Both the position numbers and the translations under genes were made by a program. A stretch of 64,000 nucleotides of DNA from an uncultured Thermoanaerobaculia bacterium (GTDB taxonomy: Bacteria; Acidobacteriota; Thermoanaerobaculia; Thermoanaerobaculales; Sulfomarinibacteraceae), in assembly GCA_964512045.1 (NCBI GenBank), contig CAZEJK010000002.1, positions 23,147 through 87,146 on the forward strand, given 5' to 3'. Shown here in pieces: positions 21,957 through 40,832 of this stretch. Every line of letters begins with the position of its first letter. The first letter of the stretch is position 1. The notes under the pieces were generated by a model. It was given only the letters and a program-made list of their open reading frames with translations. It ran no database searches and was not told where the DNA came from.

Positions 21957-24900
21957 ATGGGCGAAAGCCGTGATATTACTGAGATCTATCGATTGGTCCG
22001 GGTCCTCAAGGTTGACACCGGAGGCACGGTGTTTGCCGGCGAGGATCCCGACACGGGCGAGCCGGTGGCCATCAAGCTGCTGGAGGGTGGACTTGATGAT
22101 CCGGAGCGGCGGGAGCTGTTCGACAGCGCCATGAACGCGGTGGCGGCGGTGCAGCATCCAGCCGTTCCGAGGTGCTTGGGGCACGGTACGACATCGGCTG
22201 GAAGCGGCTATGTCGTGTGGGAGCTTCTCGAAGCCGAAACGCTCGAGGCGTCTGACAGCGTTGCATCTGACTCGGCTCGAGGTGCGGGCTTACTTGCTGA
22301 TGTGGCGGATGGGGTGGGAGCACTGCACTCCGCTGGAACCGTCCATGGCAACCTGGCACCGGAGAACGTGCTCGTCATCGGCGAGGGAGAGGACCGCAGG
22401 GCAGTCGTGGCCGGCCTCGGGAGCTGGGTGGTCCGGATGCAGCATCAGCCGAATCGGGTGCCCGCCCGATACCTTGCGCCAGAGCGACTCCATGCCGGTG
22501 CTGGTCTGAAGCCGCCGACAGAGGCGGCTGATGTCTACGCACTCGGAGTTTTGGTCTGCGAGGTTTTGGGATTCACGGTTGGATCCGTGACCGGACCGAG
22601 ACCCACCGTGACTCCGGCGACTCCGGCCAACGATGATCGAGTCGATGGACCACGCGACGCGGCACTGGCACTGGCAGGAGTGCTCGAGCTGTGCCTGCGT
22701 CGAGCGCCGGAGCAGCGACCAGCTCCGGGCGATGTTGCCGCAGCGTTGCGACGGTTTGATGGCTCCGTCTCGGGCACCGACGAAGGACCGCCCGTACGAG
22801 GGGCGGTTTCCGCTGCCACATCCGAGCCCGGGCCTGTAGCCGTTCCGCCGCCACTCCCACCATCCAAGGTCGGCGAGGAGGTGTCAGCTCCACCGACAGC
22901 GGCGGACGAGGCAGGTACTGAGGAAGAGCTGCCGGCGTATGAGCCTACGATGGTGATTCGACGTGATGCGGTCGGTGCTGCGGTGACGCCGGAACGCGGG
23001 GAGTCGGAGCCAGGTGGCGAGGCCCCTGCCGCTGAAGGAGCGGCCGACGACACCGACGAGGCCGGGACCGCTGTGGTCGATCGTGCGGAGATTGCGGATG
23101 CCGTGCAGCGCGCTTCGCGCGAAGAGAGCTCTGCCGAGGAAGAAGCGCGGCAGTCCGGAGACAGCGAAGTTGTCGACGAGCCGCCGGCGGAGGATGCCAC
23201 AGTCGCCCTGCCCAGGCGAGAGATCGAGCAGGCTGTGGCCGCGGCCCGCCAGCCGATCGGCCCGCCGGTTGCAGAGACCTCCGGGGAGACCACCGCGCGG
23301 CCCCCTGGCGTGCCGGACGATGCGACCGAGATCGAGGCGGAAGAGAACGCCGAGTCGCGACAGGCGCCATCGCCACCACCGACCTCTGTTGGTGCCGGTC
23401 AGGTGCCGGGGGCGACCGTCATCATGGAGAGGCCTGTGCCTCCGTCCGCCACAGAGATACAGGGCTCGGGTGTTGCCGAGAGCGAACACTACGCGGCAGC
23501 AGAAACCCCCGAGTGGGAGCTCGACGAGAGCCCTGAGCCGACTGCGCCGTTTGATGTCGTACCTCCGGCGGAGATCGAAGCCCCGGAGTGGGAGCTGGAG
23601 GCCGATCCCGTGGAGGCTCGCTCACGACCCGAGCCTTCAGGAGCCACGGAGCAGGCCGGAGAGGGAGGACCATCGGCCGCCAACAACGAGACTCCAGATC
23701 AGACGTCCCGCGAGCAAAGCCACGATCTGCCAGCGAGCCCGACGGATCGAATCGCCCCTCCGAGTGTCGCTAGCCGTTTGGTGGCGCACGCAGACGAGGA
23801 GGAGTTCGACCCAAACCGCACGATGGCCGTGTCGTTTGAGCCCGCGCCGCCGGAGGGCGTCCAGGCGGACGATGCATCGGAGGGTGATGAGGCTGCAGAA
23901 CCTGCGATGGCTGATGCCGTTCCCGGAGAAGAAGCGAGGTCCGACGAAGGCGGGACGGAGCAGACCGAGCCGACGACAGCATTGGCCGGTGAAGAGCGGG
24001 AGGAGATCCGCGAAACTCCGCCCGCGCCACCGCCGCTGGCACCACCGGCCGAGGTTGAGGATACGGGCTGGGCCGGGACGGAACGGGTTGACGCTGAACG
24101 GGAGGAAACGACCGATTCCGGGGCGCGCACAGCACCTGTCCCGCCCGATCAAGCTGAGGATGGGGGGCCGGAGGCCATCCCAGGCCCGACTCCGCCACCG
24201 GTTCCCCCAGAGGGTTCGGCTTCTCGCCCCGCAACCGTGCCACCTCCTGTCAGGGCGGGGCAGCCTCCCCCACCACCGTCACCTCCGAAACCAGATGTGA
24301 CCCCGGCGCCGGCGGTGTCAGGAGTGCCCCAGGATCCGCCGGTCGCGGCGCCCGCACCGCCGCCACCCGAGGCTCCGTCGCCAGCGCAGGAGGATCAACC
24401 GCCTGTCGAAGTGGCCGGAGCCACCGAACGTCCAGGCAAAATGCCTTCGAGGAGACGCTGGGGTCTCTTGGGGGGTATTGCGGCGGTGGTGATCGTGGCT
24501 GTTGTGACCGTCGTGGTGGTGCTGACCCGGGGAGGCGGGGAACCCGCTCCGCCAGAGTCAACGGCGGAGCTGGTGGCCGCGCTGCCCACCGCCGTACCAG
24601 CTCCGACACCTGTCCTTGAGGAGGAGTTGGATGAACCGCCAGAGCTGTTTCCGGATCTGCTCCTCGCCCAGCAGCTGCTCGCAACCGGCGAAACAGAGGC
24701 GGCACGCAGGGCCGTGGAGACTATTCCCGATGAGGTTGTCGACGGGTTCGGAGAGGACGACTTTGACGCGTACCAGGAGCTGGTCGATGTGCTGGCTGGC
24801 GCCGAGCAGAACGAGCTCGAGCAGGCGGTTCGGACGCTTCGCAGGGGCCTGAAGATCGATAGCCCCAAGCTCCTCAGGAGGGCGATAGAGGAGCTGGACC

Positions 24901-25742
24901 GTCAGGACCCCGCACGTCTTGCAGATCGCCCGGACCTTGTCAGCGATATCACTCTCGCCCGCCGGGCCCTGGAGGTGCGCGATCTGATGTGGAGCGCCCA
25001 CAACGCCGGCGACTCGGAAGCCGTGCTGCGGCATGCCGAGACGCTCAACGCGCTCATCCCGGGCTACAGTCGGATTCCGGAGCTGCGGTCTGCTGCCGCC
25101 AGGTCGATCGAGGACGAAGCGGAGGCCGCTGCCACGGCCGGCGATCTGGAACGGGCCATCTCGCGACTGCAGACGATTGCTGCCAGCTGGCCGGATCGCC
25201 CTGGTCTCAACGAGCGGATCGAGGCCCTTCGCGCACGGCAGACCCGCAACCGGCAGATGGCGATGGTGCTCGACCGGGCCCGCGAGCTCGAACGGGCGCG
25301 TCAGCCGGAGCAGGGGCTCGCGGCGCTGGCCGAGGTGACGCCGAGCGAAGCGTACCGAGCCGACTTCGAGCAGGCCCGACAGCGGCTACGGGCTCTGCTC
25401 ACCCAGATGGATCAGGAGTCGCCGACTGTCGAGCTTTCAGACGACGTGGAGCTGGAGTTCCGGAAGGACGATGTCGTGACGCTGAGAGTCCGCGTGGCGG
25501 ACGATCTTCGGGTGGTATCGGTGAGCGGCTTCTGTCGTTCCAAAGGTGACAGCGGCTATCGTACCCTGCCATTGACGGAGAGCGGAGATGGTGTCTGGAC
25601 TGCAACAGTCGGCCCGCAGGTTCACGATAACCGCACGTTGGAGCTGTACGTGACCGCCACGGATCCCTCCGGACACGTGGGGTCTCTCGGATCCGCCGAG
25701 GCGCCCGTTGAGCTGCAGCGCAAGAGGTGGTACCAGCCGTGA
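21957..25742 (+). CDS. membrane-spanning Ser/Thr-kinase-like protein, predicted pseudokinase. It has a very long acidic Pro-rich disordered region, one TM and a periplasmic helical + beta C-terminus.
   Basis: The kinase fold is recognisable (VAIKLL, YLAPERL, DVYALGVLVCEV). HGN (22344-22352) replaces the catalytic-loop HRD, and AGLG (22410-22421) replaces DFG. The TM segment is LLGGIAAVVIVAVVTVVVVL (about 24460-24530). The start codon is uncertain. Confidence 0.8.
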   Translation: MGESRDITEIYRLVRVLKVDTGGTVFAGEDPDTGEPVAIKLLEGGLDDPERRELFDSAMNAVAAVQHPAVPRCLGHGTTSAGSGYVVWELLEAETLEASDSVASDSARGAGLLADVADGVGALHSAGTVHGNLAPENVLVIGEGEDRRAVVAGLGSWVVRMQHQPNRVPARYLAPERLHAGAGLKPPTEAADVYALGVLVCEVLGFTVGSVTGPRPTVTPATPANDDRVDGPRDAALALAGVLELCLRRAPEQRPAPGDVAAALRRFDGSVSGTDEGPPVRGAVSAATSEPGPVAVPPPLPPSKVGEEVSAPPTAADEAGTEEELPAYEPTMVIRRDAVGAAVTPERGESEPGGEAPAAEGAADDTDEAGTAVVDRAEIADAVQRASREESSAEEEARQSGDSEVVDEPPAEDATVALPRREIEQAVAAARQPIGPPVAETSGETTARPPGVPDDATEIEAEENAESRQAPSPPPTSVGAGQVPGATVIMERPVPPSATEIQGSGVAESEHYAAAETPEWELDESPEPTAPFDVVPPAEIEAPEWELEADPVEARSRPEPSGATEQAGEGGPSAANNETPDQTSREQSHDLPASPTDRIAPPSVASRLVAHADEEEFDPNRTMAVSFEPAPPEGVQADDASEGDEAAEPAMADAVPGEEARSDEGGTEQTEPTTALAGEEREEIRETPPAPPPLAPPAEVEDTGWAGTERVDAEREETTDSGARTAPVPPDQAEDGGPEAIPGPTPPPVPPEGSASRPATVPPPVRAGQPPPPPSPPKPDVTPAPAVSGVPQDPPVAAPAPPPPEAPSPAQEDQPPVEVAGATERPGKMPSRRRWGLLGGIAAVVIVAVVTVVVVLTRGGGEPAPPESTAELVAALPTAVPAPTPVLEEELDEPPELFPDLLLAQQLLATGETEAARRAVETIPDEVVDGFGEDDFDAYQELVDVLAGAEQNELEQAVRTLRRGLKIDSPKLLRRAIEELDRQDPARLADRPDLVSDITLARRALEVRDLMWSAHNAGDSEAVLRHAETLNALIPGYSRIPELRSAAARSIEDEAEAAATAGDLERAISRLQTIAASWPDRPGLNERIEALRARQTRNRQMAMVLDRARELERARQPEQGLAALAEVTPSEAYRADFEQARQRLRALLTQMDQESPTVELSDDVELEFRKDDVVTLRVRVADDLRVVSVSGFCRSKGDSGYRTLPLTESGDGVWTATVGPQVHDNRTLELYVTATDPSGHVGSLGSAEAPVELQRKRWYQP

Positions 25743-25828
25743 TGACCGAGCCGAATGCGGGGCGGACCATTGCGACTGCCCGATCTGCCCGATGCCGGGC
25801 CGTACGTCCGGTAGGGCGGGGGTGAGAC

Positions 25829-28800
25829 GTGGCCGAGCCGCTGGCGCATCTCCAGGGCAAGTACGAGATCCTCGAGAAGCTTCGTGAGGGCGGGATGGGG
25901 GCGATCTACAAGGTGCGCCATGTCCTCCTCGAAGAGGTCCGGGTCATCAAGGTGCTGCGTCCCCAGCTGCGAAGTGACGAACGTCTGCGTCAGCGGTTCT
26001 TGCGTGAGGCACGAACGGCGATCCGGGTTCGTCATCCGAACATAGCCCAGCTGTACGACTGCGTGATCGATGAGGACAACAACGCCTTCATCGTCATGGA
26101 GTTCATCGAGGGGATCACCTTTCAAGAGATGCTGACCGCGGGTGGCCCGCCCGCCCTCGGACTGTCCCTCGAGCTGGCGGTGCAGAGCTTGGATGCCCTG
26201 GCGACGATCCATCGCAAGGGGATCATCCACCGTGACATCTCACCGGACAACATCATGTTTTGTGCGGATGAGGACGGACTGCCAGCGGTCAAGCTCATCG
26301 ACCTCGGAATCGCCAAGGTGCTGAAGGGTGATGGCGGCCTGACCGAAACGGGGACGTTTCTCGGTAAGGTGCGCTATGCGTCACCGGAGCACTTCACCGG
26401 CGATGGGCACAACGTCGATGAGCGGAGTGATCTGTACTCGTTCGGTGTTGTGCTGTATGAGCTGGTCACGGGTAGCCGACCGTTCACCGGGAACGACGTC
26501 GCGTCCCTGATTGCAGCGCACCTTTTCCGAGGGCCACTGGGTTTTGCTGAGACCGACCCCGAGGGCCGAGTGCCTGAACCAGTTCGACACACTATCCAGA
26601 CCGCGTTGGCCAAGGAGCCGGACGCACGCTTTCAGACCGCAGCGGAGTTTCAGGCGACGCTGCGGGCACTTCAGCCGGAGCACCCCGTCACCGTCGACGA
26701 CGTGACGAAGGCCCTCGCTGAGGGACACGAGATCGACACGATGCCGATCCGTGTGCGCAAGCCCGGGTCGACTCAGGCGAAGCTCGACCGGCAGTTCGGA
26801 GTCGATCCGACGCCGCCTCCAGTGGGCGGACAGTCCGAAGAGGTGGAGGCGCTGCGCGCGGTCGACGAAACGCTTCGCAGCCCTCCGCCGGCCGTTGCGG
26901 ATCCGATACGGGTGAGGTCGCTCGTCGCCAAGGCGGAGAGTCTGATGGATCTCGGTCAGCAGACCCAAGCTCGCCATCAGCTCGAGATTGTCTTACGGCT
27001 CGAGCCTACCAACAGCGCGGCGCAGCGGCTGATGGAGCAGCTCGAGGAGACGCCTCCCGAGCGCGATCGATGGATGGACGAGATCGACTCGCTGCTGGCC
27101 GGTGAGCAGCGGAAGGGACGATCGAAACGGACGGGGTCGGTACAGGGTCAGGTACAGGCGGGGCCGGATGGTGCCGGTGAAAGCGGGGGAGAGGGAGATG
27201 TCCAGCGCCTCTTGGAGGAGGCACGCGACTGTGTCAATGCGGGCCGTCCGGAGGATGCGGCTCAACGTCTCGAGCACGCGTTGATTATGCAACCGGAGAA
27301 CGCGGCGATCCGGGAGCAGCTGGCGGTTGCCAACGCAGCGGTGCACGACAGGCGGGAGGCTGAGGAGCACGCGCAGATTGAGGCTCGAGCAGAGAGTATT
27401 CGTGATGCGCTGGCAAGTGGACGTGTTGATGCTGCGAAGGCTGCGCTCGCGGAGGCGGTCGAGCAGCTCGGTGACCATGAGGTGCTTGTAGAGCTCGGTG
27501 TCTGCATCGATCAGGAGGTGGCGCGCAGAGCAACCGTGCAGTCCTCGTGTGAGCGGGCGCGATCACTGCTCGCGGACGATTGCCCTGCCGATGCCTTGGC
27601 GGCACTGTCGACGGCCCTGGAGCTCGACCCTTCAAGCTCCGAGATCCGTGAGCTGGCTGCGCAGTGCGAGGCGCGTCAGGCGGCACTGGAGACCGAGCGC
27701 GAGACCTCCTCCGCTCGAGAGACGTTCTGGTCCCAACTGGCGGCAGGCGATGTCGATGGGGCAGCGCTGACTCTGGCCGCACTGGAAGAGCGTCTTCCGA
27801 GTGGCGAGCGCGAGAGGTTGGCGGAGGAGCTGGCACGCGCTCAATCCAGCAGACGGTCGCAGGAGCTCCTTCAGGCCGGTGCGAAGGCTCTGGACGACGG
27901 GGACGTGGAGGAGGCCCTGCAGCTGCTTGGTCGAGCGCTCACGTACAGCCCAGAAGATCTACGGGCAAACGAGCTCTTCGAGCGCGCCGGCGAGGTACAG
28001 CGCAGACGTCGTGAGCTCGACGAGCTGCTTCTGTCAGCGGACGAAAGTGAGCGTGCCGGCAATCTCAACGAGGCCATGCAGGCGTTGGAGCGAGCCAGAG
28101 AGCTGGATGCGGAAAGCCGGGAGATCTCGGAGAGGTTGCAGACGGTTGCGGACAGGTTGGTGAGCTCACGGCGAGCTGCGCGCAAAGCTGCTGAGCTGAA
28201 CGCAGCGGTGGATCAGATCACAGCCGAGCTCCAAGCGCATCGGTTCGAGCCAGCGAAACGCGCTATTGATGTGGCGGAACGTGTCTATGGCGCGGTTGCG
28301 CAGATCGTGGAGCTGAGGAAGCAGCTCGAGGCGTCGCAGGCCAAAGCTCGCGTTGAGGCGGTGGCACCGTTGCTCGCTCGAGCGCGGCAGAGTGCGATGG
28401 TCGAGGACTACGACCTGGCTTTGAAGGCGCTACGGGAGGCTCGGAGAGCTGCTCCGAACCATCCCGAGGTCGAGCATCTGATCGAGATGTATGCGTCGTC
28501 GGATCGGGCGCGGCGTGAGAATCAGCGGCAGTCTCGAGAGCTGACGCACGCTGCCGTGAGCATCGAGGCGCTCCTGAGCCGCGGGGACCGAGAGGAGGCT
28601 GAGCGCGCGCTGGATCTCGCGGAGAAGATGTTCGGCATCCAGCACGAGCTCGCACAGCTGAGGCGTCGGCTCGAGGCGTCGGTGGAGGTGGCTGTCGCAG
28701 ACCCGGCCGCGACGGTGGAGGCGGCATTGCGAGCATTGGATGCGGGCCACCGGAATGAGGCGATCCGTTTGCTGCGCGAGGTGCAGCAGATGGCGCCGGA

Positions 28801-28987
28801 CGACAGCCGTGTTCAGGGTTTGCTGGACGAGGTCATGCGTCGAGAGGCGGAGGCGAGCATCGAGGCACATCTCGAGCGTGGCGAGATGGAGCGCGCACGA
28901 TGGACCTTGGAGCTGGCCCTGGGAACGTACGGGCGAGTGGGACGGCTGCCGCGACTCGAAGAGGAGATCGATCACGGCGGGGCGTGA
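25829..28987 (+). CDS. Ser/Thr protein kinase (canonical catalytic motifs) with an approximately 700-aa helical-repeat/coiled-coil C-terminal region
   Basis: GTG start. It has GGMGAIYKV, VIKVL, HRDISPDNIMF (HRD at 26228-26236), DLGIAK and YASPEHF. Many TPR-like or coiled-coil heptads follow (ALELDPSSSEIRELAAQCEAR and similar). Confidence 0.9.
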   Translation: MAEPLAHLQGKYEILEKLREGGMGAIYKVRHVLLEEVRVIKVLRPQLRSDERLRQRFLREARTAIRVRHPNIAQLYDCVIDEDNNAFIVMEFIEGITFQEMLTAGGPPALGLSLELAVQSLDALATIHRKGIIHRDISPDNIMFCADEDGLPAVKLIDLGIAKVLKGDGGLTETGTFLGKVRYASPEHFTGDGHNVDERSDLYSFGVVLYELVTGSRPFTGNDVASLIAAHLFRGPLGFAETDPEGRVPEPVRHTIQTALAKEPDARFQTAAEFQATLRALQPEHPVTVDDVTKALAEGHEIDTMPIRVRKPGSTQAKLDRQFGVDPTPPPVGGQSEEVEALRAVDETLRSPPPAVADPIRVRSLVAKAESLMDLGQQTQARHQLEIVLRLEPTNSAAQRLMEQLEETPPERDRWMDEIDSLLAGEQRKGRSKRTGSVQGQVQAGPDGAGESGGEGDVQRLLEEARDCVNAGRPEDAAQRLEHALIMQPENAAIREQLAVANAAVHDRREAEEHAQIEARAESIRDALASGRVDAAKAALAEAVEQLGDHEVLVELGVCIDQEVARRATVQSSCERARSLLADDCPADALAALSTALELDPSSSEIRELAAQCEARQAALETERETSSARETFWSQLAAGDVDGAALTLAALEERLPSGERERLAEELARAQSSRRSQELLQAGAKALDDGDVEEALQLLGRALTYSPEDLRANELFERAGEVQRRRRELDELLLSADESERAGNLNEAMQALERARELDAESREISERLQTVADRLVSSRRAARKAAELNAAVDQITAELQAHRFEPAKRAIDVAERVYGAVAQIVELRKQLEASQAKARVEAVAPLLARARQSAMVEDYDLALKALREARRAAPNHPEVEHLIEMYASSDRARRENQRQSRELTHAAVSIEALLSRGDREEAERALDLAEKMFGIQHELAQLRRRLEASVEVAVADPAATVEAALRALDAGHRNEAIRLLREVQQMAPDDSRVQGLLDEVMRREAEASIEAHLERGEMERARWTLELALGTYGRVGRLPRLEEEIDHGGA

Positions 28988-28993
28988 GCGACG

Positions 28994-29019
28994 TCACGTC
29001 GAGACGTGATCTCTTTTTG
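28994..29019 (+). terminator. candidate intrinsic terminator after the kinase gene
   Basis: TCACGT cgag ACGTGA hairpin (28994-29009) followed by tctcttttt, starting 7 nt after the TGA at 28985-28987. Confidence 0.4.
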
Positions 29020-29032
29020 CTCGGCGCTCTGC

Positions 29033-29038
29033 TACAAT
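29033..29038 (+). promoter_or_regulatory. candidate extended -10 (TGcTACAAT), 6 nt upstream of the ATG at 29045 (possible leaderless fha transcript)
   Basis: The sequence reads cTGcTACAATgctggcATG with no SD. Confidence 0.4.
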
Positions 29039-29044
29039 GCTGGC

Positions 29045-33660: not shown

Positions 33661-36600
33661 ATGCGCGAGCTGCTGACCCTGATGCGCAACATCCCTACCG
33701 TCGGCCGGTACATCGGCGGTCTGATCATCTTCGTCGTCCTGATCTATCTGATTGCGCCGCGGATCGGTCTTGGCGGCAAGGAGTGGATCCTGGTCATCGG
33801 CTTGCTGGTGATCTTTGGGCTGTTTGGCCTGCAGAGCTTCATCATGAAGCGCAGGGAGAAGCGTCGCGCCAAGCAGTTTGAGGGAAGCCTCGGTCTCCAG
33901 GGTCGTCAGACGGGCGTTGGTAAGGAGGAGATCCGGGAAGCTCTGAAAGAGCTGTCGGAGAAGTGGGAGGGAGCGGTTCGACAGCTGAGAGAGTCCGGCC
34001 TCTCGATCTATGACCTGCCGTGGTACTTGCTCATCGGTGAGCCGCAGTCCGGGAAGAGCACGACGCTGAAGAACTCGGGCATGGAGTTCCCGGTGGGCAG
34101 CGATGGGCTGTCGGGCTCTGGCGGGACCCGAAACTGCGACTGGTGGTTCACGAACGAAGCGGTGATCCTCGATACGGCCGGACGATTCACGTTTCAGGAG
34201 GACGCCGCGCCCGACGCACACGAGTGGAACGCTTTCCTGAAGCTGCTCTCCAAGCACAGGCGGCAGTGCCCGATCAACGGTGTGATCATCGTGGTCCCGG
34301 TCACGAGCCTGGTCGAAGATCCTGTCGACGTTCAGGAGGCCAAGGCAAAGAACATCCGTCAGAAGCTGCTCAGTCTGCAGAAGGACCTCGGGATTCGACT
34401 GCCTGTGTTCGTGCTCGTGACGAAGGCAGACCGCATCCTGGGCTTCACGGAGTTCTGCTCGAAGCTCGACCCGATCGACCAGCGTCAGCTGTTCGGCTGG
34501 TCGAACCGGGAGGGTCACGATCAGGCGTGGCGGCCGGAGTCCTTCGACGGTACCTTCAGCGAGATTGTGAGCCGCGTCCACAAGATGCGGCTGCGTTTCC
34601 TCCGCGTCGAGGAGAGCACCTCACAGGTCGACACACTGTTTGTGTTTCCCGAGGAGCTGGAAGCGATCCGCGAGCCTCTCGCGGCGTACCTGAACACCAT
34701 CTTTGCAGCGAGCCGGTACGAGGAGCCGTTCCTCCTGCGGGGGTACTACATCACCTCCGGAGTGCAGCAGGGGCGTCCGATCGCTCGGGCATGTCGCGAC
34801 CTGCTGCGGGTCCGTTCAGGAGGCGATCCGCAGGGCGTGTTGGAGGATCTCGAACAGGTCTTCAACAAGTCGCGCGCGTTCTTCATCCGCGACTTCTATG
34901 AGCGGAAGCTGTTCCCCGAACAGGGGCTTGTCACGCGGACCAGAGCCTCTCTGGCCAAGGAGCGGAAGACCAAGATGATTCTCCTGGGGGTGGCGCTCCC
35001 TCTGGCGTTGATCTTCCTGGTGATGTTCGGTGTGTCCGCCAGCATTCTGTACAACACTGTTGGCCGGATCAACGATGCAGTCGCTCAGGCCAAGACCTGC
35101 CTGAGCGACGAGCAACCGTGCAGTGTTACCGAGTCGTACGATCTCGTCGTGACGCTGGAGGAGGCGAAGGCTCAGCTACGACGAAGACGGTTCGCGCTGC
35201 TGATGTTCTTCCGGGGCGCGAGGAGCAATGAGATCTCCCAGGAGCTGCTTCCAGAGATCCAGGCCGAGCTGCTGCGGACCGGCGTGCTCGAGCCTGCGGT
35301 TCGTTCGTTCGTACGTCGCGCGGAGCTGGCCGGCTGGGAGAACACCCTCATCGCGTACCCGTCGTTTCGAGATGGGTTCGCCCAGCTACTCAGACTTGAT
35401 GAGCTCGAGCGTGCGGTGCTGGATCCGGACCGACAGGAGCGGCTCCGGAGGAACCTCTCGATCGAACCTCTGATCCGGTACTGCCAGGCAACCCCGGGCG
35501 TGGACACCAGCGAGGTCGGCCGTCAGGTGGACGAGTGGCTCGGTGAGGATACGCGGCTTGCGGAGGACGCCGAGAGCATCTTCCGGCATGTCGCGTCAGC
35601 AACCCCGAGAGTGGCCGATGTCGATGTGCCGGCGTTGCGATCGGCCAGTCGAGCAATGGCAGATTACTGGTCAATCTCCAACCTGGCCCGGTGGGACTTC
35701 GCGCTGATCGACCGGTACTTTGGTGGTTTCGTCGATGCGTTCGGCCAGATCCTCGATATGGCGCCTGCGATGGCGCCAGAGGCGCGTGCTGAGCTCGATC
35801 GTTACGTGGAGATCGCTCAGGCCATGGACCGGACGTACAGCGAGGGCGCCGAGCACATGGCGACTGCGCGGACCCCGCCAGGAAGCGACCGTCCGGGACT
35901 CGGGGTGGACGAGTGGGTTCAGTTCTGCCACGCGGATTATGAGCTGCTGCGCACCATCGCACCGGATGCGATCCCATCTGCGGAGGTCTCGGCGCTGTGC
36001 GATGGGATTCCGATGGAGTGGGAGCGCCTCCTCGCGCGGCGTGAGCAGTACGCCTACCTGTACACCGAAGGCGGGGGAGCGACGACGACCCCAGAGGAGA
36101 GCCCCGACCGTCCTGTCCCCGGTGAGGAGCGACTTGGCCAGCAGGCGCCTCGCGAGGCCTCTGCAGTGGTGGACACGGGCCCTCGACTGCACTGGTCGGA
36201 GGATGCAACCCGGATTCACGCCGCGGTCACGGACCTCGCAAGCCTGGTGCCCGCAGAGTCGATCAGTCAGCAGCAGGAGGAGTTCCTCCAGACACTGCGT
36301 ACGCGAGCGGGCCGTGAGCAGGAGCTGGAGGAGGTCACGAGCTACACAGACACCCAGACCCGGCGGTTCGGAGCGTGGAGCGAGCAGCTGTCTGGCCTCC
36401 GAACGCCGGAGCTCGCTGGCTACGAAGCGATCGGCGAGGTGGCGGCGCTCGGCCTCGGAGTCACGGTGCTGCCGCCGGTGGAAGAGTTCTTCCTTCGCGA
36501 CGTCTTTCCAGACAGCTGTCCGACCTGCTTTTATGAGGACTACGCCAAGACCAATGTACCGCCGGCCAACTCCGTGCTGACCTGGGCCGGAGATGTGCTC

Positions 36601-38106
36601 GGCGGCGTGTCCCGACAGGTCGACATCCGCCAGTCACTCGATGCAATCGACGACAGTGTGTACGACTACCTGGAGTCGTTCGTTGCGCAGGCTCGCGGTA
36701 GTGGAGGCGGTGGAGGAGGCTCGCGGTACAACCGTCCGCGGGAGGCGGCCGATGCCGTTCGTTGGTCGGACTTCGTGGCCGAGGTCCGCGACTGGCAGCC
36801 GGTCGTCCAGCTCCGGTCGTCCCGGAGCGGTGGCTCGGCATCGCTCGAGCAGCGCACGATGGACGAGTTCGCCCGGCGCAACCGCCGGCTCCAGCCGCTG
36901 GCAAGCCAGCTGCGAGCGTCGGCAGCGCCGAGATCATCCGGCAGCAGCGGTCCGCCGATCTCGAGCAACCTGGATCGAGCGATCGAGACGTTCCGGAGCT
37001 GTCTCGCGGTCCTCGACGACCGCCCGCTCGAGGCGTGGCGCCAGCTCGTGGCCGGTGCGGACGCAAAGCTGGACGACTTCCACGCCTTCTCACGCAACCG
37101 CGGTCTGCGGGACGATCGCGAGGCGCAGTGGCTCGTGGACAACCTCGAGCGCCACGGCGCACGGCTGCTCAGCGAGGCGATCCAGCCGCAGTTTTCAGAT
37201 CAGCTCGACCGTTTCTGGGACGATGTCGACTACTGCTGTCGCGAGCTCTACCCGTTCCTGACCGAGCGTCAAATGGGTGACTTGCGAGCGCTGTATCAGC
37301 GCGGCTACGAAGCGACCGGTGAGCCCCGACGCGAGGACAACGGCTGGGATCGGCGGGACCGGCGGGATCGTCCGGTCTGGCGGTTGCAGCTCTGGGACGG
37401 AGAGGTGCGCGACGCACGGGTGCGCGTCGTGCGACGCCGGATGGTACTGGAGACCGTACGGATCGCTGATCTGGAGGAGCTGTTCTTCGGCCGGGGCCGT
37501 TTGGCCGATCTGCATCGTGACTTCGCCCTGGCGCCGATCCTCGAAGGCCAGGAGACGATGATCGACTTCGTCGGTGAGGCCAAGGGGCGGCTGAAGGCAC
37601 TGGCGCGCTGGCAGCTTTTTCTGTTCGGACCATCCGGCGATGCGGAGAGCCGGTGGAGCCGTGACGCCGGTGATCGAGAGTTCCGGGTGCGGCTGATGGA
37701 GTCGACAGCCACCCGTGGCGCAACCTTCATCGGCGAGCGGGTCGGTCTGGTGAAGTTCCTTGGCGATAACGTTTTCCGACCCTCGACAGACGCTCGCAGG
37801 GGACGAGAGCTGAACGTACGTCTGCCGCTTGATGAGTCGCCAATCCTGATCGTGGGCATCAATGAGGACCGGACCACGGGGTGGACGGGTGAGCTCGAGA
37901 TCGAGGGAGGGCCCCTCAAGTTCCTGTTCTTGACGCACCTCGCACAGGAAGGTCCTCCGCGCAGAGACGGCCGGTTGTGGCAGGTGCGGATCGAGATACC
38001 GGATTACGATCGTCCGTCGGAACGGCTCGAGGGGATCTTCGAGCTGGAGTTCGATCGCCCTGTTCCGGATGTTCTTCCCGATAGCACCTCGGGTGGCAAT
38101 CGGTAG
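33661..38106 (+). CDS. tssM: type VI secretion membrane protein TssM (IcmF family), unusually long at 1481 aa
   Basis: It has N-terminal TMs and LPWYLLIGEPQSGKSTTLKNSG (Walker A), NCDWWFTNEAVILDTAGRF and INGVIIVVPV motifs. A third TM (ILLGVALPLALIFLVMFGV) is followed by about 1000 aa of periplasmic region. Confidence 0.95.
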   Translation: MRELLTLMRNIPTVGRYIGGLIIFVVLIYLIAPRIGLGGKEWILVIGLLVIFGLFGLQSFIMKRREKRRAKQFEGSLGLQGRQTGVGKEEIREALKELSEKWEGAVRQLRESGLSIYDLPWYLLIGEPQSGKSTTLKNSGMEFPVGSDGLSGSGGTRNCDWWFTNEAVILDTAGRFTFQEDAAPDAHEWNAFLKLLSKHRRQCPINGVIIVVPVTSLVEDPVDVQEAKAKNIRQKLLSLQKDLGIRLPVFVLVTKADRILGFTEFCSKLDPIDQRQLFGWSNREGHDQAWRPESFDGTFSEIVSRVHKMRLRFLRVEESTSQVDTLFVFPEELEAIREPLAAYLNTIFAASRYEEPFLLRGYYITSGVQQGRPIARACRDLLRVRSGGDPQGVLEDLEQVFNKSRAFFIRDFYERKLFPEQGLVTRTRASLAKERKTKMILLGVALPLALIFLVMFGVSASILYNTVGRINDAVAQAKTCLSDEQPCSVTESYDLVVTLEEAKAQLRRRRFALLMFFRGARSNEISQELLPEIQAELLRTGVLEPAVRSFVRRAELAGWENTLIAYPSFRDGFAQLLRLDELERAVLDPDRQERLRRNLSIEPLIRYCQATPGVDTSEVGRQVDEWLGEDTRLAEDAESIFRHVASATPRVADVDVPALRSASRAMADYWSISNLARWDFALIDRYFGGFVDAFGQILDMAPAMAPEARAELDRYVEIAQAMDRTYSEGAEHMATARTPPGSDRPGLGVDEWVQFCHADYELLRTIAPDAIPSAEVSALCDGIPMEWERLLARREQYAYLYTEGGGATTTPEESPDRPVPGEERLGQQAPREASAVVDTGPRLHWSEDATRIHAAVTDLASLVPAESISQQQEEFLQTLRTRAGREQELEEVTSYTDTQTRRFGAWSEQLSGLRTPELAGYEAIGEVAALGLGVTVLPPVEEFFLRDVFPDSCPTCFYEDYAKTNVPPANSVLTWAGDVLGGVSRQVDIRQSLDAIDDSVYDYLESFVAQARGSGGGGGGSRYNRPREAADAVRWSDFVAEVRDWQPVVQLRSSRSGGSASLEQRTMDEFARRNRRLQPLASQLRASAAPRSSGSSGPPISSNLDRAIETFRSCLAVLDDRPLEAWRQLVAGADAKLDDFHAFSRNRGLRDDREAQWLVDNLERHGARLLSEAIQPQFSDQLDRFWDDVDYCCRELYPFLTERQMGDLRALYQRGYEATGEPRREDNGWDRRDRRDRPVWRLQLWDGEVRDARVRVVRRRMVLETVRIADLEELFFGRGRLADLHRDFALAPILEGQETMIDFVGEAKGRLKALARWQLFLFGPSGDAESRWSRDAGDREFRVRLMESTATRGATFIGERVGLVKFLGDNVFRPSTDARRGRELNVRLPLDESPILIVGINEDRTTGWTGELEIEGGPLKFLFLTHLAQEGPPRRDGRLWQVRIEIPDYDRPSERLEGIFELEFDRPVPDVLPDSTSGGNR

Positions 38107-38115
38107 GGCGGCGCG

Positions 38116-39072
38116 ATGGGGATCCTGAGCCGCCTGAAAGAACGTCTGGAGTCCGAGCGGGACCTGCAGCTACCCCTTTCGACGTATGGAAAGCTTCCGA
38201 TTTACAAGGACTTTCTTCGATCAGGACTGACCGGCAAGGAGGCCCAGTCAGTCCGTCAATGGCTCGACCGCGGGATCAGTCATTTCTGGGCCTCCCGGCC
38301 GGAGTACCGATCGCAGGAGATCTACCAGCACGCCCTCTTCTTGAGATTCGACGGCGGACAGCGTGCCGTACTGGGCGTGCTGTGGGGGAGCCACGATGAG
38401 GGGATGCTCCGGCGGTTTCCGTTCATCTGCTTCACGACGGTACCCGTCGGTCGAGGTCCTGTTCCATCGTTGACAGCTCTCGATCTTCTCTCGCAAATGG
38501 TCGACCAGGCGCGACGGTGGCGACAGGACCTCGATCAGTTGGCATCGGTGGAGGCGTTCTACGGATGGTCGCGCGGTCGCACGTTCACGCTCAAAGAGCG
38601 CCCCGAGCGGGTGATCCGGCAGGAGGTCCGTGAGCGGTTCGGAGCGGTCACTGTCGGCGATTTCGCCGCCTTGCTGTACGCTGGCGACGAGCCGTTGACC
38701 TCCTGGGCCGCGCTCCATCGGAGGGTCGAGCGGCAGCTGGCAGGAGAGCGTCTGGCAGCTCGGTTTCCTACGTGTGCCCGTGGATCGATCCTCGACCAGA
38801 CCAAGCTGTGGTGCACGATGCTATCCGATCGTGTGGCGCGGGGTCGTGGCTGGAGCATCATCGTCCCGCTCTACGACGAGCACAGCGGGGTCGTGATGCT
38901 GCAGCGCCAGATCCGAGACGACGATGTGTTCGTGTTCCACCCAGAGATGCCAGACTACGACTTCATCGAAGATCTGCGACCGGAGCAGATCAGTACCAAT
39001 GGCGCGGACCCCTCTGCCGTTGATCCCGAGCAGAGATTGTTGGGATCGTCGAGCGGCGAGGGAGCGGCCTGA
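38116..39072 (+). CDS. tagF: type VI secretion-associated protein TagF (ImpM family)
   Basis: The N-terminal YGKLPIYKDFLRSGL ... VRQWLDRGI matches the TagF GKLPxxGDF-type signature. It lies immediately after tssM. Confidence 0.8.
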   Translation: MGILSRLKERLESERDLQLPLSTYGKLPIYKDFLRSGLTGKEAQSVRQWLDRGISHFWASRPEYRSQEIYQHALFLRFDGGQRAVLGVLWGSHDEGMLRRFPFICFTTVPVGRGPVPSLTALDLLSQMVDQARRWRQDLDQLASVEAFYGWSRGRTFTLKERPERVIRQEVRERFGAVTVGDFAALLYAGDEPLTSWAALHRRVERQLAGERLAARFPTCARGSILDQTKLWCTMLSDRVARGRGWSIIVPLYDEHSGVVMLQRQIRDDDVFVFHPEMPDYDFIEDLRPEQISTNGADPSAVDPEQRLLGSSSGEGAA

Positions 39073-39089
39073 AGCAGGGAGAGAGCACC

Positions 39090-40832
39090 ATGGCGCACGT
39101 CTTGGGAGATCAGCTCGAAGCGTGCTGTGCGCTGTTCGGAGGGGGTGCTCCGTACGGTGAGGACATCAAGTACGACGAGATGTACATGGACCTCCGCGCG
39201 GAGATTCAGAAGCTGACAGCCATGAGCACCAAGGAGGGTGCAACGGACTGGAAGGCGGTCCGGGCGTGGAGCGTGGAGCTGCTGTCGAAACGCTGCAAGG
39301 ATCTGACGGTGGCGGGGTATCTCTCAATGGCCCTGTTCATCCTCGAAGGATATCCAGGGCTGGCAGACGGCATGGCGATCGTGCGTACGTTCGTGACCGA
39401 GCACTGGGAGGGCGTGTATCCACCGGTCAAACGGGCACGGGCTCGAAGCGCTGCGCTGGAGTGGCTTGTCAACCGTCTGGGGCCGCTGGTGGAAGACCGG
39501 CCCGCGGCAGACGGGGACGCCGAGGTCCTGGGGGAGATCCGGGAGTCGACCCAGACGATCCACGAGACCGTCCTCGAGCACCTCGGGCATCAGGCGCCGA
39601 CCTTCTCTGACGTGATTACGGCCGTGAAGAGCCATCTGGAGAGGGTGGCAGCAGCGCAGCCTGCGGCGCCGAGTGAGTCGACCGAGGAGCAGGAAGGCGA
39701 GGCCGCTGAGCCGGGGCTGGCAGCGGGCTCCGAGGCAGCAGCGCAGACGGATTCCGAGCAGCCAACAGCACCTCCTGAACCAGCGGCTCAACCAGCTGCT
39801 CAGCCACGAGCTCAGCAGGCGACAGCCCGTCCCACTCGCCCTGCGACAGGCACCTCCGGGGCGGCACCGACGACGCCCGGCTCAGACGCTTCAGTGTCGG
39901 ATCTTCGCAGCCACGTCATGGTGTTGGCGCGGTTGCTCCGTGAGGCGGATACGCTGAGCCCGACTCCGTATCGGATGCTCCGCTCCCTGAAGTGGGACGA
40001 TTTGCAGGGCCCGCCGCCAGCGGACCCCGGTGGGAGCGGCAAGACGCGGGTGCAACCGCCGCGCCCCCAGCAGCGGATGGCGCTGGATTCGATGCTGCAG
40101 GGACAGCGCTGGAGAGATCTCATCCAGGCGGCTGAGGGGGCGTTTCAGGAAGGCACGGGGACCTTCTGGCTGGATCTGCAGCGCTACACCGTACTGGCTT
40201 TGGAGAAGCTCGATTCCAGCGGTGGTCGCGCGGCTCGAGCGGTCAAGGAGGATACGGCGAAGCTCATCGAGCAGTACCCGAATCTACCGGCGTTGCGGTT
40301 CAGCGACGACAGCCCATTTGCCGCGGATGTTACCCGTGAATGGCTCGAGGAGATCGGAAGCGGGCCGGGATTGGCCGCGATGTTGGCTCCGCCGGCGCCG
40401 CGAGGGGCGGAGGCGGAAGGATCGACGCTGGAGGGCAGCGAGCTGGAGCAGGCAGCGGATCTGTTCTCCAAGAAGAAGCCGGCGGCAGCGCTGGCACTGC
40501 TCCAGGGCGGCGTGGACCGCGCAAGCAGCCTGCAAGGGTCGTTCCGCACCCGTCTGGAGATAGCTCGGGCGTGCCTCCAAGGGAACCAGCCGGCCTGGGG
40601 GCGTACGATCTTGGAGGACCTGCGTGAACAGCTCGAGAGCATCACGCTTCCAGAGTGGGAGAAGGAGCTGGCGGTTCAGGTGTACCAGCTCTCCGGACTG
40701 TGCTATGCGCGGCTTGTGAAGGACCGCAAGACGGAGGATCGGGAGACGGTTCGGGAGCTGCTGGAGGAGGTCAAGGCACGTCTGTTCCGGCTCGATATGC
40801 GTGCCGCGGCTGTCGTCGAGGAAGCCTCCTAG
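39090..40832 (+). CDS. tssA: type VI secretion protein TssA (ImpA_N domain, long Ala/Pro/Glu linker, C-terminal helical domain)
   Basis: ImpA_N-type N-terminus: PYGEDIKYDEMYMDLRAEIQKL ... DWKAVRAWSVELLSKRCKDLTVAGYLSMAL. It is 580 aa. Confidence 0.85.
   Translation: MAHVLGDQLEACCALFGGGAPYGEDIKYDEMYMDLRAEIQKLTAMSTKEGATDWKAVRAWSVELLSKRCKDLTVAGYLSMALFILEGYPGLADGMAIVRTFVTEHWEGVYPPVKRARARSAALEWLVNRLGPLVEDRPAADGDAEVLGEIRESTQTIHETVLEHLGHQAPTFSDVITAVKSHLERVAAAQPAAPSESTEEQEGEAAEPGLAAGSEAAAQTDSEQPTAPPEPAAQPAAQPRAQQATARPTRPATGTSGAAPTTPGSDASVSDLRSHVMVLARLLREADTLSPTPYRMLRSLKWDDLQGPPPADPGGSGKTRVQPPRPQQRMALDSMLQGQRWRDLIQAAEGAFQEGTGTFWLDLQRYTVLALEKLDSSGGRAARAVKEDTAKLIEQYPNLPALRFSDDSPFAADVTREWLEEIGSGPGLAAMLAPPAPRGAEAEGSTLEGSELEQAADLFSKKKPAAALALLQGGVDRASSLQGSFRTRLEIARACLQGNQPAWGRTILEDLREQLESITLPEWEKELAVQVYQLSGLCYARLVKDRKTEDRETVRELLEEVKARLFRLDMRAAAVVEEAS

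What the first reader, a model, noticed from the sequence alone, without database searches (positions are those of the whole stretch)
21957..40832. T6SS half-locus: membrane complex, TssK, TssA, TagF, Fha and kinases, but no sheath, tube, spike, TssEFG or ClpV
fha-tssJ-tssK-tssL-tssM-tagF-tssA are contiguous and co-oriented. The order matches the fha1-tssJ-tssK-tssL-tssM-tagF arm of the P. aeruginosa H1-T6SS. The locus ends at a convergent queG, and nothing else in the 64 kb looks like tssB, tssC, hcp, tssE, tssF, tssG, clpV, vgrG or PAAR. No PP2C (PppA-like) phosphatase is present to oppose the kinases. Either the contractile half is encoded elsewhere (a split T6SS), or this envelope-spanning module is used differently.
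Basis: partly seen in the sequence, partly recalled or inferred. Interest (0 to 1): 0.7.

Follow-up and report, generated by a model that had tools for sequence, protein, structure and literature searches.

The report
Membrane arm of a split T6SS
This is a real, well-conserved gene cassette for the envelope-spanning anchor and assembly starters of a bacterial type VI secretion "crossbow"; the sheath, tube and spike genes are almost certainly at a second site in the genome, so it is an unusual gene layout, not a new machine.

Summary
Window 21846/21957-40832 (+) encodes nine co-oriented, tightly spaced genes: a membrane-anchored pseudokinase, an intact Ser/Thr kinase with TPRs, Fha, TssJ, TssK, TssL, TssM, TagF and TssA, ending at a convergent queG. 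TssJ has no sequence-family match. It is a lipoprotein, and its AlphaFold model best matches solved TssJ structures. No TssB, TssC, Hcp, TssE/F/G, ClpV, VgrG, PAAR or PP2C gene is in the 64 kb.

The seven-gene fha-to-tssA cassette recurs alone in at least seven other, differently flanked metagenomic contigs, probably Acidobacteriota. One is a 7.66 Mb contig. It is under strong purifying selection (dN/dS 0.03-0.17). More distant relatives carry the same arm fused to hcp-tssA-tssBC-tssEFG-clpV-vgrG. One unlinked 1.25 Mb contig carries the exact complement alone: tssB-C-hcp-E-F-G plus vgrG-PAAR.

Best reading (about 0.8): the membrane and initiation arm of a two-locus T6SS. I could not show the tail arm in the same genome. 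Split T6SS loci are already known in Neisseria T6SS-A, so interest is modest. Side observations: this clade's Fha carries a Clp_N domain, and neither arm encodes ClpV.

The parts
21957..25742 (+). STK1: a single-pass membrane Hanks-type pseudokinase. It has an N-terminal kinase-like domain, a Pro/Glu/Ala-rich linker of about 570 aa, one TM helix (ORF residues 874-892) and a periplasmic C-terminal region of about 400 aa. The ORF is open from a GTG at 21846; the ATG is at 21957.
   Evidence: PK_Tyr_Ser-Thr 1.7e-18 and Pkinase 7.6e-13. It has HGN in place of HRD and AGLG in place of DFG, and a TM segment was predicted. The C-terminal 351 aa are 71% identical in L001.
25829..28987 (+). STK2: a soluble Ser/Thr kinase with a C-terminal TPR array. 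It is the likely PpkA-like activator acting on Fha or TssL.
   Evidence: Pkinase 9.5e-39 plus TPR families. The VIK Lys, HRD, DLG and SPE motifs are intact and there is no TM segment. It is conserved in L001 (70% identity, dN/dS 0.17).
29006..30997 (+). Fha: an FHA domain, then a Clp_N-like double repeat, then a conserved C-terminal domain. The true start is probably a Met 14 or 35 codons in.
   Evidence: FHA 2e-12 and Clp_N 0.002. A profile of clade Fha proteins hits PDB Clp N-domains: 8b9o 4e-6, ClpC2 2e-5, ClpB 5e-4. dN/dS 0.10.
30994..31488 (+). TssJ: outer-membrane lipoprotein of the membrane complex. It is too divergent for sequence models to recognise.
   Evidence: Signal peptide plus invariant Cys29. 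AlphaFold pLDDT 85.8. The top seven Foldseek PDB hits are all TssJ. No Pfam, NCBIfam or PDB sequence hit. Only 26 representatives at 50% identity in 1.8 billion proteins.
31533..32900 (+). TssK: the baseplate subunit that links TssFG wedges to the membrane complex.
   Evidence: PF05936 3.2e-85 over its full length. TIGR03353 284.5 bits against a cut-off of 100. dN/dS 0.05.
32967..33650 (+). TssL (DotU): the short form with a C-terminal TM anchor and no peptidoglycan-binding domain.
   Evidence: PF09850 7.8e-32. TIGR03349 100.5 bits against a cut-off of 89.95. TM at residues 184-211. dN/dS 0.03.
33661..38106 (+). TssM (IcmF family): three TM helices, a cytoplasmic NTPase domain with Walker A, and a divergent periplasmic domain of about 1000 aa.
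   Evidence: PF14331 3.9e-64. TIGR03348 366 bits, over model positions 5-486 only. TMs at 14-32, 43-61 and 440-458; Walker A GEPQSGKS at 126-133. Aligns over its full length (35% over 1508 columns) with the TssM of the complete locus L018.
38116..39072 (+). TagF: a post-translational repressor of T6SS assembly.
   Evidence: PF09867 1.3e-13, 51.5 bits against a cut-off of 27. TIGR03373 40.7 bits against a cut-off of 41.2.
39090..40832 (+). TssA, long VasJ type: the assembly chaperone or cap that primes baseplate docking and tube/sheath polymerisation.
   Evidence: ImpA_N 5.8e-25 plus T6SS_VasJ 1e-56. TIGR03362 264.8 bits against a cut-off of 230.1. dN/dS 0.13.
40883..41998 (-). queG (epoxyqueuosine reductase): a convergent housekeeping gene that marks the 3' boundary. 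It is not part of the system.
   Evidence: QueG_DUF1730 4.8e-24 plus Fer4_16. Same position in L001.

Best explanation
**What it is.** The locus is the membrane-complex and assembly-initiation arm of a type VI secretion system of the proteobacterial kind (T6SS-i). The system's genes sit at two or more places in the genome.

**How it most likely works.** The roles below are inferred from what is established for these families.

1. TssJ (outer-membrane lipoprotein), TssM and TssL build the envelope-spanning channel.
2. TssK docks a TssEFG-VgrG baseplate onto that channel.
3. TssA primes and caps Hcp tube and TssBC sheath growth.
4. TagF holds the system off.
5. Fha, read by a Ser/Thr kinase module, switches it on.

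**Where the rest is.** The tail arm (tssB, tssC, hcp, tssE, tssF, tssG, vgrG, PAAR and effectors) would be encoded at a second locus outside this window, like the stand-alone tail locus L021.

**The kinase module.** Here it is an intact cytosolic kinase with TPRs (STK2) plus a membrane-anchored pseudokinase with a periplasmic domain (STK1), which is probably the sensor. No cognate PP2C phosphatase lies nearby.

**Shown versus inferred.**

- Shown: gene identities, cassette conservation, purifying selection, absence of tail genes from the window, and the existence of complementary stand-alone tail loci.
- Inferred: the tail arm is present in this genome, and the two arms are co-regulated.
For: 1. 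**Canonical matches.** TssK, TssL and TssA score above curated cut-offs over their full length, and TagF does so against Pfam. These proteins have no known role without a baseplate and sheath. TssJ has the TssJ fold. TssM has the canonical topology and P-loop, and is homologous end to end to the TssM of a complete locus.
2. **Conserved cassette.** fha-tssJ-tssK-tssL-tssM-tagF-tssA recurs as a stand-alone cassette, with unrelated neighbours, in L001, L003 (7.66 Mb contig), L013, L014 and L015. The tssM-tagF-tssA end recurs in L007, and the same end (only the last codons of tssM) in L008. About 60 TssK clusters in the database are 55-61% identical.
3. **Purifying selection.** dN/dS between the window and L001 is 0.03-0.17 for all eight genes, against 0.21 for queG, at dS of about 1.
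4. **Contiguous relatives.** More distant relatives have the same arm running straight into the tail genes: L004 as fha-J-K-L-M-tagF-hcp-impE-tssA-tssB-tssC, and L018 as ...L-M-tagF-hcp-impE-tssA-B-C-E-F-G-clpV-vgrG. The arm is therefore a detached piece of a canonical system. L016 and L017 show further fragmentation in the same group.
5. **A complementary locus exists.** L021, on a 1.25 Mb contig from the same ENA accession series (ERZ25039xxx) as L003, L014 and L015, has tssB-tssC-hcp-tssE-tssF-tssG plus vgrG-PAAR and putative effector genes. It has none of fha, J, K, L, M, tagF or tssA within 10 kb either side. Its GC content and divergence from L018 are similar to those of the membrane arms.
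6. **Precedent.** Neisseria T6SS-A has its core genes across two loci (PMC7643975, PMC10210955).
Against: - **No link to the same genome.** The tail arm was not found in any genome that carries the membrane arm.
  - Searches with TssC and TssB for hits on the half-locus contigs were uninformative.
  - L021 proteins fall in singleton clusters.
- **Uninspected sequence.** About 30 kb of the 94.6 kb source contig lies outside the window.
- **No ClpV.** Neither the membrane arm nor L021 encodes ClpV, so the reconstructed pair would lack one of the 13 core genes unless it lies at a third site or ClpB substitutes.
- **TssA type differs.** TssA here is the long VasJ type. The contiguous relatives have a short ImpA_N-only TssA plus ImpE, so the cassette is not simply those loci cut in two.
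- **Possible decay in some copies.** L014, L015 and the fha gene of L003 have broken ORFs. These may be long-read assembly errors or real decay.
Confidence: 0.8

Rival explanations
1. **Autonomous or re-partnered module.** Genomes of this clade have no TssBC, Hcp or TssEFG. In that case the TssJLM-TssK-TssA-TagF-Fha set works without a canonical T6SS tail. It could be a stand-alone envelope conduit or scaffold, or an anchor for a different contractile or non-contractile partner.
For: - The cassette is self-contained and conserved, with no tail gene within 10 kb in any of the half-loci: seven gene-called or ORF-checked contexts and a tblastn over every fetched locus.
- The periplasmic parts are lineage-specific. 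TssJ and the C-terminal two-thirds of TssM escape the sequence models.
- Fha carries an unusual Clp_N domain.
- The tail arm could not be shown in the same genome.
Against: - TssK and TssA match canonical full-length models above trusted cut-offs and are strongly constrained (dN/dS 0.05 and 0.13). Their only known partners are TssFG, VgrG, Hcp and TssBC.
- The same divergent TssJ and TssM types occur inside complete T6SS loci (L004, L017, L018), so their divergence is a lineage trait and does not mark a new use.
- A matching orphan tail locus exists.
Confidence: 0.08
2. **Decaying remnant.** The tail arm was lost and this arm is a non-functional leftover on its way to pseudogenisation.
For: - Some relatives show broken ORFs: TssK, TssM and TssA in L015, TssM in L014, and the fha C-terminus in L003.
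- An IS66 transposase sits next to L003.
Against: - All nine ORFs in the window are intact.
- dN/dS is 0.03-0.17 at dS of about 1.
- The cassette is kept across TssK divergence down to about 55% identity, in many contexts.
- The broken copies come from Flye-style long-read assemblies, where frameshift errors are common.
Confidence: 0.03
3. **Tail arm nearby on the same contig.** The tail arm lies on the same contig just beyond the window, within the uninspected 30 kb or so. The system would then be loosely clustered rather than truly split.
For: The source contig is 94,569 bp and the window covers 64,000 bp of it.
Against: - At least 21 kb of housekeeping genes upstream and 23 kb downstream separate the arm from either window edge. 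Even then it would be a two-locus system.
- Relatives on large contigs show no tail genes within 10 kb.
Confidence: 0.09

Closest known systems
Pseudomonas aeruginosa H1-T6SS, fha1-tssJ1-tssK1-tssL1-tssM1-tagF1-pppA-ppkA operon (T6SS-i; own knowledge of the locus)
   Same: Same gene order, fha-tssJ-tssK-tssL-tssM-tagF. Fha, TagF and a Hanks-type kinase are associated with it. The tail genes form a separate transcription unit.
   Different: - In H1 the tail operon (tssA1-B1-C1-hcp1-tagJ1-E1-F1-G1-clpV1-vgrG1) is immediately adjacent and divergent. Here it is absent from at least 21 kb on either side.
- TssA travels with the membrane arm and is the long VasJ type.
- There is no PppA and no TagQRST.
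- The kinases are a TPR kinase plus a pseudokinase, not a kinase with a periplasmic VWA domain.
- Fha has a Clp_N domain.
Neisseria T6SS-A (N. subflava KU1003-01 and relatives; PMC7643975, PMC10210955)
   Same: A T6SS-i whose 13 core genes are kept across two distant chromosomal loci. This layout is conserved within a lineage.
   Different: - The Neisseria partition mixes modules: tssE, J, G, F, A and M at one locus, and tssH, D, L, K, B, C, vgrG and PAAR at the other.
- Here the partition is clean. The membrane complex, TssK, TssA and regulators sit at one site.
- Here the second locus has not been shown in the same genome.
Complete T6SS loci of related uncultured Acidobacteriota (L004 from GCA_046331465.1; L018 from a JGI metagenome)
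   Same: Homologous Fha C-terminal region, TssJ-like lipoprotein, TssK (46-49% identity), TssL, TssM (35% identity over its full length) and TagF, in the same order.
   Different: - Those loci continue into hcp-impE-tssA(short)-tssB-C-E-F-G-clpV-vgrG.
- The window's clade stops after a long TssA.
- It has no ImpE/TagJ.
Francisella T6SS-ii, which uses housekeeping ClpB (PMC5481754)
   Same: A T6SS locus without a dedicated ClpV. It is a possible model if no clpV exists elsewhere in this genome.
   Different: A different T6SS subtype with different core proteins. Whether this genome lacks ClpV is unknown.

Membership tests
T6SS-i membrane complex (TssJLM) | TssJ: an outer-membrane lipoprotein with the TssJ beta-sandwich fold | tested here: met
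   Lipobox Cys29 is invariant in 9 and in 19 homologues. The AlphaFold model has pLDDT 85.8. The Foldseek top seven hits are all TssJ, with probability 1.00 and E from 1.9e-4 to 5.5e-3. Sequence models fail.
T6SS-i membrane complex (TssJLM) | TssL: a DotU-family cytoplasmic domain with a C-terminal TM anchor | tested here: met
   PF09850 7.8e-32; TIGR03349 100.5 bits against a cut-off of 89.95; TM at 184-211.
T6SS-i membrane complex (TssJLM) | TssM: three N-terminal TMs, an IcmF-type NTPase domain and a large periplasmic domain ending in the TssJ-binding region | tested here: inconclusive
   The N-terminal third is met: PF14331 3.9e-64, three TMs and a Walker A motif. The periplasmic two-thirds get no Pfam hit. 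The TIGR03348 match stops at model position 486, at 366 bits against a cut-off of 388. There is no PDB sequence hit. The protein does align over its full length with the TssM of the complete locus L018.
T6SS-i baseplate and initiation | TssK family protein | tested here: met
   PF05936 3.2e-85 over residues 19-433; TIGR03353 284.5 bits against a cut-off of 100.
T6SS-i baseplate and initiation | TssA with an ImpA_N domain and an oligomerising C-terminal region | tested here: met
   ImpA_N 5.8e-25 plus VasJ 1e-56; TIGR03362 264.8 bits against a cut-off of 230.1.
Complete T6SS-i (13 core genes) | TssB, TssC, Hcp, TssE, TssF, TssG and VgrG encoded in the same genome | not testable with these tools
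   They are absent from the 64 kb window. The rest of the genome is not available. Indirect searches were uninformative.
Complete T6SS-i (13 core genes) | ClpV (TssH) sheath-recycling ATPase | tested here: not met
   There is no ClpV in the window and none in the complementary-type tail locus L021. Only a Clp_N-like domain inside Fha was found. The genome-wide status is unknown.
Threonine-phosphorylation pathway (PpkA-PppA-Fha) with TagF | An Fha with an FHA domain, and TagF | tested here: met
   FHA 2e-12; TagF_N 1.3e-13, above the gathering score. The T6SS-specific Fha model TIGR03354 did not hit.
Threonine-phosphorylation pathway (PpkA-PppA-Fha) with TagF | A catalytically competent Hanks-type kinase in the locus | tested here: met
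   STK2 has the Lys, HRD, DLG and SPE motifs. STK1 lacks the catalytic Asp and the DFG Asp. Phosphorylation of Fha or TssL was not tested.
Threonine-phosphorylation pathway (PpkA-PppA-Fha) with TagF | An opposing PP2C phosphatase (PppA) | tested here: not met
   No PP2C or SpoIIE family hit in any ORF scanned across the window. The stretches with no assigned gene are each 1.3 kb or shorter. Their longest ORFs (up to 265 aa) were scanned without a hit, and the ones left unscanned are under about 180 aa.
Multi-locus (split) T6SS, as in Neisseria T6SS-A | A complementary locus in the same genome that supplies the missing core genes | not testable with these tools
   A complementary stand-alone tail locus exists in another contig and sample (L021). 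It cannot be tied to a genome that carries the membrane arm.

The most novel reading that the evidence does not exclude
The clade that carries this cassette has no TssBC, Hcp or TssEFG genes at all. The TssJLM-TssK-TssA-TagF-Fha module, with its Clp_N-bearing Fha, would then be a selected, kinase-controlled envelope machine that works without a contractile tail, or with an unrelated partner.
Probability: 0.07. Interest if true: 0.85.

Novelty: new member of a known kind. Interest (0 to 1): 0.33.

Why it matters
- **For genome surveys.** Single-locus detectors, such as the MacSyFinder-based gene-count criterion used in PMC13098142, would score both arms as 'incomplete'. They would then under-count T6SS in Acidobacteriota and similar uncultured soil lineages. 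A conserved two-locus layout, with the break between the membrane/initiation module and the tail module, also shows that these are separable evolutionary units.
- **For T6SS biology.**
  - TssA sits with the membrane arm.
  - The regulator is a pseudokinase/kinase pair with no PppA.
  - Fha carries a Clp_N domain.
  - Neither arm has ClpV.

  These are testable hints about how assembly and sheath recycling are organised outside Proteobacteria.
- **If the minority reading were true.** A tail-less TssJLM-TssK-TssA machine would be a real surprise.

Tried and rejected
1. **Source contig look-up.** The look-up of encoding contigs with the window's own TssK and TssA returned 'not on record', so the remaining 30 kb of the source contig could not be read.
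3. **Metagenome scans.** A scan with TssA alone found nothing. A scan with a three-sequence TssA alignment gave only six short contigs.
   - The 194-aa TssC fragment retrieved only fragments.
   - The TssB list filled up at 71% identity or higher.
   - This is uninformative and is not evidence of absence.
5. **Cluster look-up.** An exact look-up of ten L021 proteins, meant to find members on half-locus contigs, returned only singleton clusters.
6. **TssJ by sequence or single-sequence model.** No hit in Pfam, NCBIfam or PDB profiles. The single-sequence AlphaFold model was poor (pLDDT 50) and its fold search meaningless. This was solved with the representatives search.
7. **Promoter and terminator scans** at both ends of the operon found nothing.
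8. **Rejected reading: TssM lacks its periplasmic domain.** It aligns end to end with the TssM of complete loci.
9. **Rejected reading: hidden small tail genes in the unannotated gaps.** tblastn was negative and all gaps are 1.3 kb or shorter.

Full report
**1. What is in the sequence**

The window has about 64% G+C. Nine ORFs lie head to tail on the + strand between 21846/21957 and 40832, with gaps of -4 to 86 bp, so they probably form one operon. The locus ends 50 bp before a convergent queG at 40883-41998.

| Gene | Evidence |
|---|---|
| STK1, STK2 | Two Pkinase proteins |
| Fha | FHA domain 2e-12 |
| TssJ candidate | 164-aa ORF with no family hit |
| TssK | PF05936 3e-85; TIGR03353 284 bits vs cut-off 100 |
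| TssL | DotU 8e-32; TIGR03349 above cut-off |
| TssM | IcmF-related_N 4e-64; TIGR03348 366 bits vs cut-off 388, N-terminal 486 of 1168 model positions only |
| TagF | TagF_N 1e-13; TIGR03373 40.7 bits vs cut-off 41.2 |
| TssA | ImpA_N 6e-25 plus VasJ 1e-56; TIGR03362 265 bits vs cut-off 230 |

**2. The doubtful parts**

*TssJ.* The 164-aa ORF has a signal peptide ending in a Cys. That Cys is invariant in nine syntenic homologues and in 19 database representatives.

- Sequence profiles find no TssJ.
- The family is small: 26 representatives at 50% identity among 1.8 billion proteins.
- A single-sequence AlphaFold model was useless (pLDDT 50).
- With the 19-sequence alignment the model reached pLDDT 85.8.
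- Its seven best PDB matches are all TssJ: P. aeruginosa TssJ1 3zhn (E 1.9e-4, TM 0.67), Serratia Lip 4a1r, EAEC TssJ 4y7o_D, and 6ixh_A.

So tssJ is confirmed by position, lipoprotein signal and fold.

*TssM.*

- Three TM helices and an intact Walker A motif, GEPQSGKS.
- Its periplasmic 1000 aa escape Pfam.
- The protein still aligns end to end (35% over 1508 columns) with the TssM of a complete T6SS locus, L018.

*Kinases.*

- STK1 has HGN for HRD and AGLG for DFG. It also has a long acidic/proline linker, one TM helix and a periplasmic tail of about 400 aa. It is probably a membrane pseudokinase or sensor.
- STK2 keeps all catalytic motifs, has no TM segment and carries TPRs.

**3. What is absent**

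- All large ORFs in the 21 kb upstream and 23 kb downstream are housekeeping or signalling genes. Upstream are PDH E1/E2, a hyb-type NiFe hydrogenase operon, BacA and a tricorn-like protease. Downstream are an ABC exporter, PFK, NDH-2, and GGDEF/EAL regulators.
- tblastn with Hcp, TssB, TssC, TssE, TssF, TssG, ClpV, VgrG and ImpE from L018 gave no hit in the window. The same was true for TssB, TssC, Hcp, TssE, TssF, TssG, VgrG and PAAR from L021.
- The gaps with no assigned gene are all 1.3 kb or shorter.
- No PP2C family was found in any ORF scanned.

The caveat is that the source contig is 94,569 bp, and the other 30 kb could not be retrieved.

**4. Relatives**

The named TssK homologues are Acidobacteriota MAGs (Thermoanaerobaculia, Holophagales) at 46-55% identity. 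The unnamed hits include about 60 clusters at 55-61%.

Loci with the same stand-alone cassette, each in a different neighbourhood:

| Locus | Source | TssK identity | Content |
|---|---|---|---|
| L001 | JGI contig | 92% | Cassette plus the kinases and queG |
| L003 | 7.66 Mb contig | 60% | Cassette |
| L013 | 348 kb contig | 59% | Cassette |
| L014 | 238 kb contig | 60% | Cassette |
| L015 | 156 kb contig | 56% | Cassette, frameshifted |
| L007, L008 | short contigs | n/a | tssM-tagF-tssA end in L007; the same end in L008 with only the last codons of tssM; no tail gene after tssA |

None has a tail gene within 10 kb.

- L016 (53%) is reduced further, to fha-K-L-M-tagF with a divergent kinase.
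- At 46-49% identity the same arm is joined to tail genes.
  - L017 has the arm plus hcp and impE.
  - L004 has the arm, then hcp-impE-tssA-tssB-tssC.
  - L018 shows the full series ...L-M-tagF-hcp-impE-tssA-B-C-E-F-G-clpV-vgrG.

The cassette is therefore a detached piece of a canonical T6SS-i. The lineage fragments its T6SS loci repeatedly.

**5. Is the cassette functional?**

dN/dS between the window and L001, at dS of about 1:

| Gene | dN/dS |
|---|---|
| TssL | 0.03 |
| TssK | 0.05 |
| TssM | 0.09 |
| Fha | 0.10 |
| TssJ | 0.10 |
| TagF | 0.11 |
| TssA | 0.13 |
| STK2 | 0.17 |
| queG (comparison) | 0.21 |

A decaying remnant is very unlikely.

**6. Where is the tail?**

I could not read any genome that carries the cassette.

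- Searches with TssC and TssB from L004 for hits on the half-locus contigs were uninformative. The fragment query returned only fragments, and the TssB list filled up at 71% identity or higher.
- One TssC hit led to L021, on a 1.25 Mb contig from the same ENA accession series (ERZ25039xxx) as L003, L014 and L015.
- L021 carries tssB-tssC-hcp-tssE-tssF-tssG, followed by a convergent DUF6402-x-PAAR-DUF6931-x-vgrG block.
- Non-T6SS genes flank it. It has no fha, tssJ, K, L, M, tagF, tssA or clpV within 10 kb.
- It carries the core tail genes that the window lacks, apart from ClpV.
- Its GC (67.7%) falls within the range of the membrane arms in L003, L013 and L014 (68.5-71%).
- Its divergence from L018 (TssF 46%, TssG 49%, TssC about 73%) is in the range of the membrane arms against L018 (TssM 35-48%, TssL 44-53%).
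- It cannot be tied to a cassette-bearing genome, because its proteins are all singleton clusters.

**7. Interpretation**

The most economical reading is a two-locus T6SS.

- This locus supplies the envelope complex (TssJLM), the baseplate connector (TssK), the assembly chaperone (TssA) and post-translational control (TagF, Fha, STK2 and STK1).
- A second locus of the L021 type supplies sheath, tube, wedge, spike and effectors.
- From textbook knowledge, the natural breakpoint matches the two-operon architecture of P. aeruginosa H1-T6SS: fha1-tssJ1-K1-L1-M1-tagF1-pppA-ppkA against tssA1-B1-C1-hcp1-...-clpV1-vgrG1.
- Here TssA went with the membrane arm.
- Conserved two-locus T6SSs are documented in Neisseria T6SS-A (PMC7643975, PMC10210955).

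I put this reading at about 0.8. The alternatives:

- The tail arm is on the unseen part of the same contig: about 0.09.
- The module works without a canonical tail: about 0.08.
- Remnant: about 0.03.

**8. Features that differ from textbook systems**

- There is no PppA. The kinase module is an active TPR kinase plus a membrane pseudokinase.
- TssA is the long VasJ type. The contiguous relatives have a short ImpA_N-only TssA plus ImpE/TagJ.
- The clade's Fha carries a Clp N-terminal-domain-like double repeat.
  - Pfam gives Clp_N 0.002 and TIGR03345 ClpV1 gives 0.01, on residues 292-355.
  - A seven-sequence profile hits PDB Clp N-domains at 4e-6 to 5e-4.
  - I found no paper describing this in a T6SS Fha.
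- Neither the membrane arm nor L021 encodes ClpV. Francisella shows that ClpB can substitute (PMC5481754). Whether the Fha Clp_N domain bears on this is speculation.

**9. Verdict**

- This is a real feature, correctly read by the first stage.
- It is a new member of a known kind: T6SS-i in an uncultured, probably acidobacterial lineage, with a conserved split layout.
- Interest is modest, because split T6SS loci are known and the mechanism is presumably canonical.
- Interest would be high only if closed genomes of the clade prove to lack tail genes.

Noticed in passing
window 29006-30997 (Fha residues ~195-360); also L001, L013, L014, L015, L016 and L002: The Fha protein carries a Clp N-terminal-domain-like double repeat between the FHA domain and the conserved C-terminal domain. 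Pfam gives Clp_N 0.002. A clade profile hits PDB Clp N-domains at 4e-6 to 5e-4. Neither this arm nor the stand-alone tail locus L021 encodes ClpV. I found no paper describing a Clp_N domain in a T6SS Fha.
   Followed up: partly
window 21957-25742: The first 'kinase' lacks the catalytic Asp (HGN for HRD) and the DFG Asp (AGLG). It has a low-complexity linker of about 570 aa, one TM helix and a periplasmic domain of about 400 aa with no family hit. It is probably a pseudokinase sensor paired with the intact kinase STK2.
   Followed up: partly
L003 19821-20540(-), L013 19345-20070(-), L007 7314-8030(-), L008 ~4270-4850(-): A conserved convergent gene of about 240 aa sits directly after tssA in four of the stand-alone cassettes. 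The copies are 32-63% identical to each other. The gene has a weak Phage_lysozyme hit (E about 0.005). It could be a peptidoglycan-remodelling helper or an effector. The window and L001 lack it and have queG there instead.
   Followed up: partly
L021 9478-20379 (ERZ25039483 contig_15208, 1.25 Mb): A stand-alone T6SS tail locus: tssB-tssC-hcp-tssE-tssF-tssG plus a convergent DUF6402-x-PAAR-DUF6931-x-vgrG block. It has no membrane-complex genes, tssA, tssK or clpV within 10 kb. tssC, tssF and vgrG are split, probably by assembly frameshifts.
   Followed up: partly
L016 5188-17353 (GCA_024449685.1): An even more reduced arm: fha-tssK-tssL-tssM-tagF with no tssJ and no tssA. A divergent 952-aa Ser/Thr kinase lies upstream and a RapA-like helicase downstream.
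   Followed up: no
window 8516-13953: A complete hyb-type (group 1) NiFe hydrogenase operon: a Tat-signal small subunit, an Fe-S subunit, an NrfD-like membrane subunit, the large subunit and a HycI-type maturation protease.
   Followed up: no
window 17160-20591(-) and 55962-57374(+): Two tricorn-type S41 proteases. One is 1143 aa with PD40 beta-propeller repeats; the other is a short 470-aa version. A DUF620/LolA-like gene at 57377-58192 follows the short one.
   Followed up: no
window 52057-55434 and 59984-62290: A cluster of cyclic-di-GMP and phosphorelay regulators: Hpt-REC-GGDEF, REC-HATPase_c_2 and REC-PAS-GGDEF-EAL. It lies 11-20 kb downstream of the T6SS arm. No link to the arm was tested.
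   Followed up: no
window 20592-21845: The 1.25 kb upstream of the operon holds overlapping ORFs on both strands, for example 21191-21766(-) with GC3 0.80. None has a family hit. No sigma-70-like promoter or terminator was detected.
   Followed up: partly
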